A DNA stretch of 64,000 nt from positions 35,712,001-35,776,000 of the forward strand of contig OZ024755.1 in the NCBI GenBank assembly GCA_964016885.1. The letters are read 5' to 3'. This document shows, in pieces, positions 8,220 through 43,122 of this stretch. The notes beneath the pieces were generated by a model. It had not been told where the DNA came from and did no database searches. It was given only the letters and a program-made list of their open reading frames with translations. The number at the start of each line of letters is the position of its first letter. Position 1 is the first letter of the stretch. A program made the position numbers and the translations under genes. This stretch comes from Eledone cirrhosa. Its lineage: Eukaryota.

Positions 8220-8333
8220 CTCGGTTGAGGATATTTTGAAATACACTCTCAGGTGTGGAATCATTGAATGGAGGGACGCCTGTTAGAAACTCAAACGTAC
8301 ATACACCAAGGGCCCACCAATCAACAGCTTCAT
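8220..8333 (-). CDS. MASTL: Internal exon of a Greatwall/MASTL-type AGC Ser/Thr kinase (subdomains IX-X)
   Basis: Minus strand: ttttcAG acceptor at 8335-8334, GTgagc donor at 8219; 114-nt phase 1-1 exon encoding (D)[37 protein letters not shown], which closely matches Greatwall/MASTL ([36 protein letters not shown]). No other exon recognised in the window. Confidence 0.85.
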
Positions 8334-8369: not shown

Positions 8370-9681
8370 AAATTCCAAACATGGAAGCACTAGAGAAGAA
8401 ATTCCAAACATGGAAGCACGGCCTAGAGTCAAAAGGACTTAAAATTAACCTGGCTAAGACCAAAGTACTAGTTTGTAGGAAAGAAAACAAGGCGGCGGTC
8501 CCTTCTGGGAAATGGTCGTGCTCGGTGTGTAGGAAAGGCGTAGGTAGAAACTCCATTTTATGTCCTAAATGCAAAGTATGGGTGCATAAAAGATGTAGTG
8601 GGATCACAGGTAAGCTAACTAAGAACATAGATTTTACATGTGGCCGGTGCTCTGGTGCAATAAGTAGCAGCAAGTGCCCACAAACTACTAGCTCTTTCAA
8701 TTGCGCAGAGGGTTCTATAGAAATAGTGGACAGCTTCCGTTACCTGGGCGATAAAATCAGCAGTGGGGGAGGGTGCTCTGAAAGTACTGTAGCTAGAGTC
8801 AGAACTGGTTGGAAAAAGTTCAGAGAGCTTATACCACTATTAGCTGCTAAAGGGTTCTCACTAAAAATGAAAGGCAGGTTGTACGATGCCTGCATACGAA
8901 CAGCAATGCTGCATGGCAGTGAGACCTGGGCATTGTGTGCAGAGGATATATGCAGACTAGAGAGGAACGAAGCTTGCATGCTCCGCTGGATGTGTAACAG
9001 TAATATACGTGAACGGCAAAGCATAAACGAACTAAGGAAAAAATTAGAGATAAGAGGGATCAGATGTTGTTTACTCGAGAGAAGGCTACGTTGGTATGGA
9101 CACGTGATGCGCATGAAAGTCGATAGCTGTATAACAAAGTGCAGGGCAATAAAGATAGACGGTAGTCACGGAATAGGCAGACCTAGAAAAACCTGGGACG
9201 AGCTGATAAACTCCGACATCACACACTTACACCTCTCCAAGACAATGTCACTGGACCGAGACCTTTGGCGGTACTCAGTAACGGAGAAGACCCGCCTTAC
9301 CTAAATATATAGTAAAACCTACTCCAGCCAGTAGGCATCTCTAACAAAATACACCCCGTCCCACCACCACCACCCCCACCCGATCCACACCACCCCGTTC
9401 TATGTAAAGTTATGTTGGTGCCGCGCCATCGAGGCCGAAACAAATGAGATCGTGTAGGTGTCACGACAAAAAAACACACAGTCCACGCTGTAATGTGGCC
9501 GTGTAGGCAACACGGTAAAAACCTCCCAGACCCACACTGTAAATGTGGTTGGTGTTAGGAAGGGCATCCAACTGTAGAAAACCTGCCAGACAGTCCTATG
9601 CGAGCAAGACAATCACTCTTGCCTCAAGTGGGACTACCCCCATCCAAACCCATGCAAGCGTGGAACACGGACGTTAAACGT

Positions 9682-9712
<31 letters not shown>
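8370..9712 (+). mobile_element. 5'-truncated RTE-clade LINE (RT C-terminal half with PHD finger, 3' UTR, (GAT)n tail)
   Basis: ORF 8381-9304: [56 protein letters not shown]; 3' UTR ends ggacgttaaacgtt(gat)n. Confidence 0.93.
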
Positions 9713-9715
<3 letters not shown>

Positions 9716-9772
9716 CATCATCATCATCATCGTTTAACGTCTATCTTCCACGCTAGCATGGGTTTAGACAGG

Positions 9773-9806
<34 letters not shown>

Positions 9807-10051
9807 GTAGGAGGTGAGTTTTATTGTAGTACAATAAAGCAATACAGATATCGGATAAGAAGCACTCTACAGTTTGTAGGACTGGAGTATACATAATATA
9901 TAAGATCAAAAGATGGTTAAATGAGTTCCATGTATTTTATTATGCGCATTTCAAAAACAAATATCATCATGCAATAACATTTGTGTTTTCATCAGATAAT
10001 TAAAACTGCACTATCCACAAGTGTTTTTTAACCTTCATATCATGTCCTCCT

Positions 10052-10120
10052 ATTTTATCTGATGAAAACACAAATGTTATTGCATGATGATATTTGTTTT
10101 TGAAATGCGCATAATAAAAT
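10052..10120 (+). ncRNA. Type I hammerhead ribozyme (Penelope-like minimal type)
   Basis: Stem I attttat/ataaaat; CTGATGA 10059-10065; stem II aaacacaaatgtt/gatatttgttttt; GAAA 10102-10105; palindromic stem III atgcgcat; AUA cleavage triplet. An inverted copy lies at about 9934-9999 (-). Confidence 0.85.
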
Positions 10121-10151
10121 ACATGGAACTCATTTAACCATCTTTTGATCT

Positions 10152-10189
<38 letters not shown>

Positions 10190-10544
10190 GCATGTGTGTG
10201 TGTGAGTCTGTGTGTGTGTGTGTGTTGCGTGTGCGTGCACGCGTCGGTTTGTATGCGTGCATATATATACACATGCATACTAAAAACATTTTTTTTGAAG
10301 ACCTTCAAATATTTTTTCAGGAAGATAATGGTTTGTCACACGCAAAACGAATAATATTTTTATGTTTAACGTCTATCTTCCACGCTAGCATGGGTTTAGA
10401 CGGGAATTGTCCTACTTGAGGCAAAATTGGTCGGGTGACCGTGTCTCGCTCGTATAGGACTGCCTGGCAGGTTTTCTACGGCTGGATGCCCTTCCTAACA
10501 CCAACCACATTACTGTGTGTGTGTGTGTGTGTTTTTTTTTGTTG

Positions 10545-11868
10545 TGACACCTACACAACCACTTTACAGTGTGGACTGGGTGCTTTTTGTCATGACACCG
10601 CCACTACTACTTTACAGTGTGGACTGGGTGCTTTTTGTCATGACACCTACACGACCACTTTACAGTGTGGACTGTGTGCTTTTTGTCATGACACCTACAC
10701 GACCACTTTACAGTGTGGACTGGGTGGTTTTTGTCATGACACCTACACAACCACTTTACAGTGTGGACTGTGTGCTTTTTGTCATGACACCTACACGACC
10801 ACTTTACAGTGTGGACTGGGTGGTTTTTGTCATGACACCTACACAACCACTTTACAGTGTGGACTGTGTGCTTTTTGTCATGACACCTACACAACCACTT
10901 TACAGTGTGGACTGTGTGCTTTTTGTCATGACACCTACATGACCACTTTACAGTGTGGACTGTGTGCTTTTTGTCATGACACCTACACGACCACTTTACA
11001 GTGTGGACTGTGTGCTTTTTGTCATGACACCTACACGACCACTTTACAGTGTGGACTGTGTGCTTTTTGTCATGACACCTACACGACCACTTTACAGTGT
11101 GGACTGTGTGCTTTTTGCCATGACACCTACACAACCACTTTACAGTGTGGACTGTGTGCTTTTTGTCATGACACCTACACGACCACTTTACAGTGTGGAC
11201 TGTGTGCTTTTTGTCATGACACCTACACGACCACTTTACAGTATGGACTGTGTGCTTTTTGCCATGACACCTACACAACCACTTTACAGTGTGGACTGGG
11301 TGGTTTTTGTCATGACACCTACACGACCACTTTACAGTGTGGACTGTGTGCTTTTTGTCATGACACCTACACGACCACTTTACAGTGTGGACTGTGTGCT
11401 TTTTGTCATGACACCTACACGACCACTTTACAGTGTGGACTGTGTGCTTTTTGCCATGACACCTACACAACCACTTTACAGTGTGGACTGTGTGCTTTTT
11501 GTCATGACACCTACACGACCACTTTACAGTGTGGACTGTGTGCTTTTTGTCATGACACCTACACGACCACTTTACAGTATGGACTGTGTGCTTTTTGCCA
11601 TGACACCTACACAACCACTTTACAGTGTGGACTGTGTGCTTTTTGTCATGACACCTACATGACCACTTTACAGAGTGGACTGGGTGCTTTTTGCCATGAC
11701 ACCTACATGACCACTGTACAGAGTGGACTGGGTGTTTTTTGTCATGACACCTACATGACCACTTTACAGAGTGGACTGGGTGTTTTTTGTCATGACACCT
11801 ACATGACCACTGTACAGAGTGGACTGGGTGTTTTTTGTCATGACACCTACATGACCACTGTACAGAGT
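10545..11868. repeat. 42-bp minisatellite (~31 copies) inside an RTE-tail-related retroposon (10362-11960, -)
   Basis: Unit gtcatgacacctacacgaccactttacagtgtggactgtgtgcttttt-type, period 48 nt in translation units of 16 codons (CHDTYTTTLQCGLCAF), i.e. true period 48 bp, ~27 copies. Confidence 0.9.
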
Positions 11869-12635: not shown

Positions 12636-12719
12636 TCATCATTATCATCATGATCATCATTTTACGTCCGCTTTTCCCTGCTTGCAAGGGTGGGAGGGGA
12701 ATTGATTTTGGCTTGATTT

Positions 12720-13190
12720 CTACACACTTACACCTCTCCAAGACAATGTCACTGGACCGAGATCTTTGGCGCTACACAGTAATAGAGAAGACCCGCCTTA
12801 CCTAAATACAAAGTAAAACCTACTACAGTCAGTAGGCACCTCTAACAAAATACACCCCCGTCCCACTACCCCCACCCCATCCACACCACCCCTTGCAATG
12901 TAAAGTTATGTTGGTACCACAACATCCAGGCCGAAACAAATGAGGTCGTGTAGGTGTCACGACAAAAAAACACACAGTCCATGCTGTAATGTGGCCGTGT
13001 AGGTAACACGGTAAAAACCTCCCAGCCCCACACTGTAGATGTGGTTGGTGTTAGGAAGGGCATCCAACTGTAGAAAACCTGCCAGACAGTCCTATGCGAG
13101 CAAGACAATCACTCTTGCCTCAAGTGGGACTACCCCCGTCCAAACCCATGCAAGCGTGGAACACGGACGTTAAACGTTGATGATGATGAT
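12720..13190 (+). mobile_element. RTE LINE 3' end (last codons + 3' UTR)
   Basis: Matches 9221-9690 (cacacttacacctctccaagacaatg...ggacgttaaacgttgatgat). Confidence 0.88.
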
Positions 13191-17197: not shown

Positions 17198-18661
17198 TCA
17201 TCATCATCAACTTTTAACGTCCGTGTTCCACGCTTGCATGGGTTTGGACGGGGGTTTTCCCACTTGAGGCAAGAGTGATTATCTTGCTCGCATAGGACTA
17301 TCTGGCGGGTTTTCTACAGCTCGATGCCCTTCCTAACACCAACCACATTTACAGTGTGGGGCTGGGAGGTTTTTACCGTGTTCCCTACACGGCCACATTA
17401 CAGCGTGAACTGTGTGTTTTTTTTACGTGATACCTACACGATCTCATTTGTTTCGGCCTGGATGTTGTGGCACCAACATAACTTTACATTGAAAGGGGCG
17501 GTGTGGATGGGGTGGGGGTGGTGGGACGGGGGTGTATTTTGTTAGAGATGCCTACTGACTGTAGTAGGTTTTACTTTGTATTTAAGTAAGGCGGGTCTTC
17601 TCTATTACTGAGTACCGCCAAAGGTCTCGGTCCAGTGACATTGTCTTGGTGAGGTGTAAGTGTGTGAGGTCGGAATTTATCAGCTCGTCCCAGGTTTTTC
17701 TGGGTCTGCCTATTTCGTGGCTACCGTCTATCTTTATTGCCCTGCACTTTGTTATACAGCTATCGCCCTTCATGCGCATCACGTGACCATACCAACGTAG
17801 CCTTCTCTCGAGTAAACAACATCTGATCCCTCTTATTTCTAATTTTTTCCTTAGTTTGTTTATGCTTTGCCGTTCACGTATATTACTATTACACATCCAG
17901 CGGAGCATGCAAGCTTCGTTTCTCTCTAGTCTGCGTATATCCTCTGCACACAATGCCCAGGTCTCACTGCCATGCAACATTGCTGTTCGTATGCAGGCAT
18001 CGTACAACCTGCCTTTCATTTTTAGGAAGAACCCTTTAGCGGCTAATAGTGGTATAAGCTCTCTGAACTTTTTCCATCCAGTTCTGACTCTAGCTACTGT
18101 ACTTTCAGAGCACCCTCCCCCACTGCTGATTTTGTCACCCAGGTAACGGAAGCTGTCCACTATTTCTATAGAACCCTCTGCGCAGTTGAAAGAGCTAGTA
18201 TTTTGTGGGCACTTGCTGCTACTTATTGCACCAGAGCACCGGCCACATGTAAAATCTATGTTCTTAGTTAGCTTACCTGTGATCCCACTACATCTTTTAT
18301 GCACCCATACTTTGCATTTGGGACACAAAATGGAGTTTCTACCTACGCCTTTCCTACACACTGAGCATGGCCACTTCCCGGAAGGGACCACCGCCTTATT
18401 TTCTTTCTTACAAACTAGAACTTTAGTCTTAGCCAGGTTAATTTTAAGGCCTTTTGATTCTAGGCCATGCTTCCATGTTTGGAATATCTTCTCTAGCTCG
18501 GCCATTGATTCAGCTATGAGTGTTAGGTCATCTGCGTATAGGAGTTCCCATGGGCAACCGGTCTTGAACTCCTCTGTTATAGCCTGAAGGGCAATAATAA
18601 ATAGTAGGGGACTGAGAACAGAGCCCTGATGGACGCCAACTTTTACGCTAAAATCTTCCAA
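17198..18661 (-). mobile_element. 5'-truncated RTE-clade LINE, same family as 8370-9712
   Basis: ORF 17582-18661 with GVHQGSVLSPLLF and YADD RT motifs, otherwise nearly identical protein to the 8381 ORF; same 3' UTR and (GAT)n tail. Confidence 0.94.
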
Positions 18662-18782
18662 CGCTAAACTCTTCTTATATATATATATATATATATAACG
18701 GTCCAGGAAAAAAGAGTGCTCTACGTAGGTTACAGAGCTTATTAGTTATGTAATAACTAATGTTTTTATAACACCAGGACTT

Positions 18783-41660: not shown

Positions 41661-42619
41661 TAGCGTTAGGAAGGCCATCCAGTTGTAGAAATCTAGCCAG
41701 AAACAGTCTTATATGAACAAGACACGGTCACCTGACCCAACTTGCCACAAATGGGACAACCAGTCTAACCCATGCTAGCATGGAAAGTGGATGTTAAACG
41801 ATGATGATAATGACATATATATATATAAGAAAAGGGAAGTTAGGTTCTATACAAAACAGTGGTTATAGAGAAAGGGTAAAGTTGGAAATAGCACGGAAAA
41901 TATATTTTAGGGTCTGTTTATCTTTTTTTCCTTTCTTTGATTCGTCAAAGTGACATTATTGAAAATATGAGAGGGAGAATTCTTTTAAAAAAGAGTTTTA
42001 TAATGTATATAGAGTATATAAAGTATTACCGGTTTTGATGCATTATTAAAATTCATCTTATCAAATGTTGAGTATTACAATTAAAAAGAATTAATACAAA
42101 TTCAAAACTAAAAATTAAAGATTTAAAATTAAGAGGTAAGTTTTTTTTTCATCTTCCTTGCTGAGAAGGAGACTGGAGAATGAGGCTCTTGTGTATAGAG
42201 AGAGAGGTGTGTAGTCATATATATATATGTATATATGTAAATATGATAATAATGGAGCTGCAGCGTTGCAAATGGGTTACATATGAAAAAGTTTGTCCTT
42301 CATCAGTGGTCTTCCAACCGTCATAGGCATTTCATCGCTTTAAAGACCATATACCTCAGGTTGGTGCGAGCAGCAGCTAAAAAAAGTCGTTGGGACTCGT
42401 AAATAAAGGGGACGCTAGGGTAAACAAACAAAATGGTTTAAGCAACAGAAAGCGATGAACAAATATATATATATATATATATATATAGTAAGCAAAAAAG
42501 TGTTGGTAAAATCCAGTACTTCAGTATGCAGATAGGGAGCACTCAATGAAGATATAGATTCCGAAGTTATAATAGTGACGAAACATAAGTCAATTGTATG
42601 AACTGATAATCTTTTATTT

Positions 42620-42675
42620 ACCGCTAAATATATTTCGATGATAGCCATTGTATGGCTATGACCTCATCAGGCAGT
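42620..42675 (-). ncRNA. Type I hammerhead ribozyme (inverted twin of 42858-42913)
   Basis: Minus strand actgcCTGATGAggtcatagccatacaatggctatcatcGAAAtatattTAgcggt; perfect atagcca/tggctat stem II. Confidence 0.75.
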
Positions 42676-42857
42676 TAGTAAGTTCTTAAATATGCCAGCT
42701 CTGGGCTTTTGGTGTTGATGGTTTTAGAGCCTTGGGACATATGAGCTTGTTAGGGATAATTTAGTATTCTTGTAGATTCCTAACAAGCTCATATGTCCCA
42801 AGGCTCTAAAACCATCAACACCAAAAACCCAGAGCTGGCATATCTAAGAACTTACTA

Positions 42858-42913
42858 ACTGCCTGATGAGGTCATAGACATACAATGGCTATCATCGAAA
42901 TATATATAGCGGT
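42858..42913 (+). ncRNA. Type I hammerhead ribozyme
   Basis: Stem I actgc/gcggt; CTGATGA 42863-42869; stem II ggt-atagaca/tggctat-atc; GAAA 42897-42900; palindromic stem III atatatat; UA site. Confidence 0.78.
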
Positions 42914-43122
42914 AAATAAAGGATTAGGAGTTCATACAATTGACTTATGTTTCGTCACTATATATATATATATATAACGAAGGAAATGTGGTAAGGAACC
43001 AGATGGACCATAACACACCAAAATACTCAATACTTAGGGTAGTAGAGTAGGTAATAGAGGAACGAGTAGGACCCCGATGGCTGAGCTCAGCCGCCGGGGT
43101 CCTACTTGTTCCTATATATATA

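What the first reader, a model, noticed from the sequence alone, without database searches (positions are those of the whole stretch)
9807..10161. Fold-back insert carrying two inverted hammerhead ribozymes
Seen: ~105-bp perfect inverted arms (9893-9999 / 10055-10161) around a 55-bp spacer, flanked by (TA)n, with an ~85-nt extension on the left only. Each arm has a full hammerhead core (CTGATGA, stem II, GAAA, palindromic ATGCGCAT stem III, AUA). Known: Penelope-like elements (PLEs) carry minimal type I hammerheads with palindromic stem III that cleave as dimers, and often have inverted terminal copies. Inference: whichever strand is transcribed, the RNA contains a hammerhead plus its antisense copy, so the host pre-mRNA could either self-cleave or sequester the ribozyme in a long hairpin, 1.6 kb upstream of the MASTL exon.
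Basis: partly seen in the sequence, partly recalled or inferred. Interest (0 to 1): 0.75.

Follow-up and report, generated by a model that had tools for sequence, protein, structure and literature searches.

The report
Head-to-head Penelope retroelement stubs with hammerheads
The mirror-image pair is two short end-pieces of an abundant Penelope-type jumping gene sitting back-to-back in a TA repeat inside a long intron, an already described kind of insertion whose predicted self-cutting RNA is likely switched off here, though the family's thousands of copies hint at how these elements copy themselves.

Summary
The sequence is as described: 107-bp perfect arms, each with a hammerhead core. It is not a stand-alone fold-back. 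Both arms are 5'-truncated ends of a young Hydra-clade Penelope-like element (800-aa telomerase-like RT plus GIY-YIG; 17,157 exact 18-mer matches in the genome). The 'spacer' is extra 5' sequence of the right arm, and the left extension is the element's tail. Head-to-head copies with a one-sided tail and hammerheads on opposite strands are published. The strand of the MASTL-like gene carries the left copy, which keeps only 4 bp of stem I and is preceded by its antisense copy, so host self-cleavage is unlikely.

The family is more informative than the locus. In 43 of 43 sampled pairs one arm has the tail and one lacks it (one exception found separately). About half of the ends stop at one site, often with an extra G (likely the RNA cap). 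Almost none stop at the ribozyme cut. Copies that crossed the ORF never stop there (0 of 30). This scan has noted the two-arm and extra-G patterns on other DNA. Cleavage and expression are untested.

The parts
9796..9806 (.). left remnant of the (TA)n target, next to (CA)n
   Evidence: sequence
9807..9892 (-). 86-nt tail: sequence that in full copies links the pLTR to the ORF leader; outer end is the distal RT start site (inferred)
   Evidence: 1 difference from the copy in L036; tail runs on into the ORF in L069, L071, L076
9893..9999 (-). left arm: 5'-truncated pLTR with hammerhead core (CUGAUGA 9995-9989, GAAA 9952-9949, predicted cut 9941|9940) but only 4 bp of stem I
10000..10054 (+). apparent spacer: extra 5' part of the right arm, starting 10 nt inside the family's common 5' end; holds the 5' strand of distal stem I
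   Evidence: 100% identical in 43 best genomic matches
10041..10125 (+). complete type I hammerhead motif: stem I 10051-58/10114-21 plus 10041-44/10122-25, core 10059-65, stem II 10066-10101, GAAA 10102-05, palindrome 10105-12, predicted cut 10113|10114
10055..10161 (+). right arm: pLTR without tail; outer end is the proximal RT start site (inferred)
10160..10188 (.). right remnant of the (TA)n target
8220..8333 (-). Greatwall/MASTL-like kinase exon; the insert lies in the roughly 181-kb stretch between it and the only genomic match to the preceding kinase motif

Best explanation
The insert is two 5'-truncated end copies of a Hydra-clade Penelope-like retrotransposon joined head-to-head in a (TA)n tract, likely made in one event by the element's RT-endonuclease nicking both strands and priming two cDNAs at two fixed sites 86 nt apart on an uncleaved RNA. 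Shown: identity to the parent's pLTR and tail, the parent ORF, the one-tail/one-short rule and the end statistics. Inferred: one cDNA per strand, started at the tail end and at the pLTR end; both stopped early here (10 nt and 65 nt short of the RNA's likely capped start) and were joined bluntly at 9999|10000. The hammerhead is inherited cargo. In any read-through RNA the antisense arm comes first and a 107-bp duplex is predicted to bury it, so the locus is predicted to be catalytically silent and at most a source of intronic dsRNA.
For: 161 nt of the right arm match 43 other places or self at 100% among 40 scored candidates, many as opposed pairs. Longer copies continue upstream into an ORF; intact frames of 808-821 aa exist. 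The model's best folds are telomerase RTs (E 5e-8); the C-terminal domain's seven best rows are Hpy188I, I-TevI and T4 EndoII (weak, E 0.1-0.3; GIY-YIG label recalled). Hydra motifs of PMC8557442 section 11 are present. In the first 100 exact matches on C1 plus 24 near matches, 43 of 43 opposed pairs have one tail and one short end; 23 of 23 classifiable pairs in other loci agree. Frangieh 2024 (PMC11167929, parts 1-2 of 4) shows in vitro cutting and extension of both strands, two internal start sites bounding the tail, and uncleaved RNA as main template. Only 4% of copies are lost across the cut site (17,157 vs 16,436).
Against: No phylogeny was built; clade placement rests on motifs and a by-eye comparison with Hydra-1_Obim. 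One tail/tail pair was found (L169) and 3 pairs were non-standard. Some arms have no detectable partner. Pfam gave no RT or GIY-YIG hit. The junction of this copy was not confirmed by reads.
Confidence: 0.9

Rival explanations
1. A host-used ribozyme switch: the MASTL-like pre-mRNA either self-cleaves or hides the hammerhead in the hairpin.
For: Intronic position on the gene's strand is likely; the left core is intact.
Against: Left copy has 4 bp of stem I, pair probability 0.003 alone; antisense arm is transcribed first; stem III needs a second ribozyme in the same orientation (monomer pair probability 0.001). The copy is nearly unmutated (1 difference in 354 nt from L036), hence recent, and one of thousands.
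Confidence: 0.02
2. One cDNA folds back and copies itself (self-priming), which makes the second arm; proposed for head-to-head palindromes in PMC3846280 (passages read).
For: Arms are identical; many junctions are palindromes at CATATG; the arms of a pair never mix 'stops at the start site' with 'passes it' (0 of 43, 11.3 expected); within-pair differences are lower than between insertions (1.2 vs 1.9 per 91 nt).
Against: A fold-back from the tail-primed cDNA makes the tail arm the longer one. Here the tail arm is the shorter (111 vs 166 nt), as in 7 of 7 pairs where a truncated arm faces a full-run arm and in 10 insertions whose inverted partner is only a fragment. A short-primed cDNA cannot supply the tail. 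Some junctions have an extra G on both arms (L182). Later resection could rescue this model.
Confidence: 0.06
3. A non-autonomous palindromic element (MITE-like or retrozyme) that moves as a unit.
For: Many short copies have similar size and begin at one site.
Against: Junctions and arm lengths differ from copy to copy; arms are nested truncations of one ORF-bearing element; no tandem short units at this locus. A short RNA from the pLTR promoter acting as template is not excluded.
Confidence: 0.02

Closest known systems
Hydra clade of C-terminal EN+ Penelope-like elements (Craig et al. 2021, PMC8557442; section 11, section 15, passages and supplement rows read), e.g. Hydra-1_Obim
   Same: RT then GIY-YIG, DKT, CxCx5C linker, CxxC and CxH motifs, no CCHH, hammerhead in the pLTR, (TA)n target, inverted 5'-truncated copy, tail on one side only
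   Different: Different family: its hammerhead sequence is unlike that listed for Hydra-1_Obim; unit about 3,657 bp against under 3 kb in general; tail 86 nt against 30-40; RWK reads RWT or RWI
[quoted passage not shown]
   Same: Type I topology, long helix II, palindromic positions around loop 3, predicted dimer; that paper already reports pairs 100-700 bp apart on opposite strands and low activity in vitro
   Different: Not the minimal form: it keeps an 8-nt palindromic helix III, closer to the Drosophila virilis variant; helix II is 15 bp and starts with A-U, not the conserved G10.1-C11.1
PAc (Poseidon of Anolis carolinensis) in vitro mechanism (Frangieh et al. 2024, PMC11167929; parts 1-2 of 4 read)
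   Same: Two RT start sites bounding the tail, AT-rich target, both strands used, uncleaved RNA as template, no ends at the ribozyme cut
   Different: Other clade; there the start sites lie inside the ORF and showed no strand difference in vitro, whereas here they lie upstream of the ORF and each pair uses one of each
Extra 5' G of full-length LINE-1 copies (mentioned in PMC2831318; one passage read)
   Same: Frequent G just before the common 5' end, read as a copied cap
   Different: Here the G marks short stubs inside the pLTR, not full-length copies
Animal non-LTR retrozymes (bioRxiv 10.64898/2026.07.22.740005; part 1 of 5 read)
   Same: Type I hammerhead derived from PLE pLTRs, non-coding
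   Different: Retrozymes are head-to-tail tandem units; this is one head-to-head pair of truncated ends

Membership tests
Penelope-like element | Telomerase-like RT in a single ORF | tested here: met
   800-aa ORF in L069; best Foldseek rows are TERT; YRDDG motif; no Pfam hit
Penelope-like element | pLTR partial tandems, inverted 5'-truncated copy, one-sided tail | tested here: met
Hydra clade | C-terminal GIY-YIG endonuclease | tested here: met
   IYECKV..YFGST, R, E, N conserved; seven best fold rows are Hpy188I, I-TevI, T4 EndoII, all weak
Hydra clade | DKT motif; CxCx5C linker; CxxC and CxH around E and N; no CCHH | tested here: met
   HSDKTNN, CNCRIKNKC, CNLC, CLH in L068/L069; C5, C7, C13, C105, C108, C133, H135 invariant in 9 sequences
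Hydra clade | RWK motif | tested here: inconclusive
   RLRWT or RLRWI here; RMRWK in most relatives at the same columns
Hydra clade | (TA)n insertion preference and a hammerhead in the pLTR | tested here: met
   outer ends of the 124 sampled arms run into TA or CA/TA repeats apart from one that continues into the ORF
Hydra clade | Generally shorter than 3 kb (typical, not strict) | tested here: not met
   tandem period about 3,657 bp on C6
Hydra clade | Placement in an RT phylogeny | not tested
   only a by-eye comparison with supplement sequences
Type I hammerhead ribozyme | Core CUGANGA, GAA, A15.1-U16.1, H17 with stems I and II | tested here: met
   core columns 97-100% conserved in 103 distinct variants except N7
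Type I hammerhead ribozyme | G10.1-C11.1 pair | tested here: not met
   A-U closes stem II
Type I hammerhead ribozyme | Stem III: stable in the monomer, or palindromic for a dimer | tested here: met
   monomer pair probability 0.001; 8-nt palindrome duplex -10.5 kcal/mol
Type I hammerhead ribozyme | Covariation in stems | tested here: inconclusive
   47 of 103 variants aligned: 98.6% of cells paired, changes mostly one-sided, score not above shuffles (172 of 500)
Type I hammerhead ribozyme | Match to an Rfam hammerhead model | tested here: not met
   none among 36 matches at E<=5
Type I hammerhead ribozyme | Self-cleavage | not testable with these tools
   needs in vitro transcription or RNA end mapping
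Non-LTR retrozyme | Head-to-tail tandem units each with a hammerhead | tested here: not met

The most novel reading that the evidence does not exclude
The family's copies record a two-template life cycle. One RT-endonuclease dimer primes two cDNAs on the same RNA, one per target strand, always one at each start site. Capped, uncleaved linear RNA yields only short dead-end palindromes that run off at the cap. ORF-containing copies come from an RNA with no end at that site, most simply a circle made by hammerhead cleavage and ligation. The ribozyme would then decide which RNAs can make full-length progeny.
Probability: 0.25. Interest if true: 0.7.

Novelty: new member of a known kind. Interest (0 to 1): 0.3.

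Why it matters
The locus itself is an ordinary dead insertion and probably has no effect on the host gene beyond a 107-bp intronic duplex. The family is useful because PLE papers name two open questions: how tandem/inverted structures form and what the hammerhead is for (PMC8557442 section 15). A young family with intact ORFs, a simple (TA)n target and sharp end statistics gives concrete predictions for an in vitro system: one start site per strand, run-off at a capped start with an added base, and long products only from circular or multimeric RNA.

Tried and rejected
Rfam scan: no hammerhead model; the miRNA matches are far below gathering scores and reflect a generic hairpin. Pfam and a PDB profile search did not recognise the ORF. 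Sequencing runs: no RNA holder listed; contigs of two runs of unknown kind cover the family but no listed piece settles the junction of this copy. Pile-up of 5' ends at the ribozyme cut: not found (4% loss over 4 nt; two copies start within 1 nt of it, L072 and L074). Full-length copies starting at the common 5' end: expected under a simple single-mRNA model, not found (0 of 30 loci out of 97 matches; a whole-genome count was not obtained). Within-family covariation: not above shuffles. Literature searches for a cap signature or a strict one-tail rule in PLEs listed no paper on it; most subscription papers and Repbase are outside the library, and bioRxiv supplements are closed. MITE, miRNA precursor and retrozyme readings were rejected on structure.

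Full report
Observation. The stretch contains exact 107-nt inverted arms (9893-9999, 10055-10161), 55 nt between them, an 86-nt left-only extension and (TA)n on both sides. Each arm has the hammerhead core. On the + strand the motif folds with an 8-bp stem I (pair probabilities 0.8-0.93), a further 4-bp distal helix, a 15-bp bulged stem II and a stem III that does not form in the monomer (0.001) but is an 8-nt palindrome able to pair between two copies (-10.5 kcal/mol). Rfam has no hammerhead model among 36 matches at E<=5, so the assignment rests on the core, the stems and family conservation.

What it is. A search of the 3.0-Gb own genome with 10000-10160 returned 43 full-length 100% matches among 40 scored candidates of 771, many in opposed pairs. 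Exact counts give 1,391 copies of a 31-mer of this subfamily and 17,157 of an 18-mer shared by subfamilies. Longer copies run upstream through a 3' UTR of about 0.9 kb into an ORF, and intact frames of 808-821 aa exist. The predicted structure (pLDDT 78) matches telomerase RTs best; the C-terminal domain weakly matches Hpy188I, I-TevI and T4 EndoII. The DKT, CxCx5C, CxxC and CxH motifs, the lack of CCHH and the (TA)n target fit the Hydra clade as defined in PMC8557442 section 11. By eye the protein resembles Hydra-1_Obim but the hammerhead differs, so it is another family. I did not determine the host; 'octopus-like' is a recalled impression and appears in earlier scan notes.

Anatomy. With 0 set at window 10166, the right arm covers -166 to -6 and ends in (TA)n without a tail. 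The left arm, on the minus strand, covers -111 to the end and continues through the tail. The spacer is therefore just the longer 5' reach of the right arm, and the join at 9999|10000 is blunt. In full copies the tail continues into the ORF leader, as in PAc, where the tail is the stretch between two RT start sites (PMC11167929). The insert differs from the copy in L036 at 1 of 354 positions, so it is recent.

Host context. The exon at 8220-8333 (minus) matches Greatwall kinase, and the preceding kinase motif occurs once in the genome, 181 kb upstream on the same strand. The insert is thus likely intronic. The gene's strand reads the antisense of the right arm first and then the left hammerhead, which has 4 bp of stem I (pair probability 0.003 even alone). 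The whole insert folds into a -184 kcal/mol hairpin on either strand with hammerhead pairs at about 1e-18. This holds for any head-to-head pair, so the arrangement is predicted to silence its own ribozyme.

Family statistics. I took the first 100 exact matches listed on C1 and the 24 near matches in the same loci (124 arms). All 43 opposed pairs have one tail end and one short end; 23 of 23 classifiable pairs in further loci agree, 3 were non-standard, and one tail/tail pair (L169) turned up among unpaired arms. Of 124 arms, 42 stop at -174 to -181, 48 pass that site and 34 stop earlier. Genome-wide, 11,147 copies hold the motif starting at -176 and 4,226 hold it with its six upstream bases. 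Six of 30 pass-through copies have changes in those six bases, so the share that stops is about half rather than 62%. The base before -176 is G in 2,111 copies and A in 570, where the element has C; in the sample it is G in 12 of 22 arms against 5 of 33 prematurely truncated arms. Of 30 G junctions inspected, 5 can be read as templated by the other arm, about 6 as microhomology and about 3 as duplication; the rest have no template. A copied cap is the likely source, as argued for LINE-1 (PMC2831318); terminal transferase activity at an uncapped end is not excluded. By contrast only 4% of copies are lost across the predicted cut, so cleaved 3' products are not a main template, in line with PAc.

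Two further results bear on mechanism. No pair combines an arm that stops at -176 with one that passes it (0 of 43; 11.3 expected; 0 of 100,000 permutations), which suggests both arms copy the same RNA or RNA class. And pLTRs that lead into the ORF, i.e. reached by an RT that crossed the whole unit, pass -176 in 30 of 30 loci read out of 97 matches (L248 was flagged by the script but reads as a diverged pass-through). This counts against a simple model in which one mRNA starting at -176 makes all copies. It fits a second template without that end: the circle proposed in PMC4209133, or long transcripts from tandem arrays such as the five units 3,657 bp apart on C6. Some of the 30 may be duplications made in the genome rather than by RT.

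Ribozyme status. In 103 distinct variants the core is 97-100% conserved except at N7, and the common stem changes keep pairing (A-U to G-U, G-U to A-U, U-G to C-G). On 47 of these variants 98.6% of cells pair but covariation does not exceed shuffles; the family is too young for that test. Other families in the fetched loci show the same plan with different stems and palindromes (TATATA, TGATCA, CTAG). The A-U pair at the base of stem II departs from the conserved G-C. Activity is untested and no RNA run was listed.

Comparison and verdict. Inverted 5'-truncated copies, a tail at one end, (TA)n targeting and hammerhead pairs on opposite strands are all in print (PMC8557442, PMC3846280 passages, PMC4209133). 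The locus is a new member of a known kind and not a host switch. The strict one-tail rule, the extra G and the contrast between short and ORF-crossing copies were not found in my paper searches, but this scan's unchecked notes report two-armed insertions in this genome and extra-G stubs in other genomes. I had the tail rule and the G counts before opening those notes; the same-RNA test was run after. Interest 0.3.

Noticed in passing
window 42488-42960: A second head-to-head hammerhead pair from an unrelated family (cores at 42670 minus and 42863 plus, palindrome TATATA), with a left-only extension and (TA)n on both sides; arms slightly diverged.
   Followed up: partly
G000:C6:38070964-38085865: At least five head-to-tail units of this element 3,657 bp apart, a candidate source of multimeric RNA.
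   Followed up: no
window 10052, 10070, 10092 (family variants): Three common A-to-G subfamily variants lie in hammerhead stems and keep pairing as G-U; they could be neutral changes or fixed A-to-I edits.
   Followed up: no
L014, L023, L028, L033, L043, L063, L064, L069, L095: At least six other hammerhead families with palindromic stem III occur in the fetched flanks, several as opposed pairs.
   Followed up: no
window 8372-9304 (+), 17582-18745 (-), 9443-9770, 10364-10530, 12640-13190: Fragments of another RT-encoding repeat (RTE-like, label recalled) and its inverted end copies surround the insert; one copy expands into a 48-bp array at 10536-11865.
   Followed up: no
L025, L026, L098, L101, L160, L191: Junctions at the common 5' end often hold short repeated pieces of the first bases (ATATG units), as if the RT or a repair polymerase re-primed several times.
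   Followed up: partly
L069 ORF residues 581-656: A low-confidence N/S/T-rich insert of about 75 aa between RT thumb and linker, like the N-rich inserts described in rotifer Penelopes.
   Followed up: no
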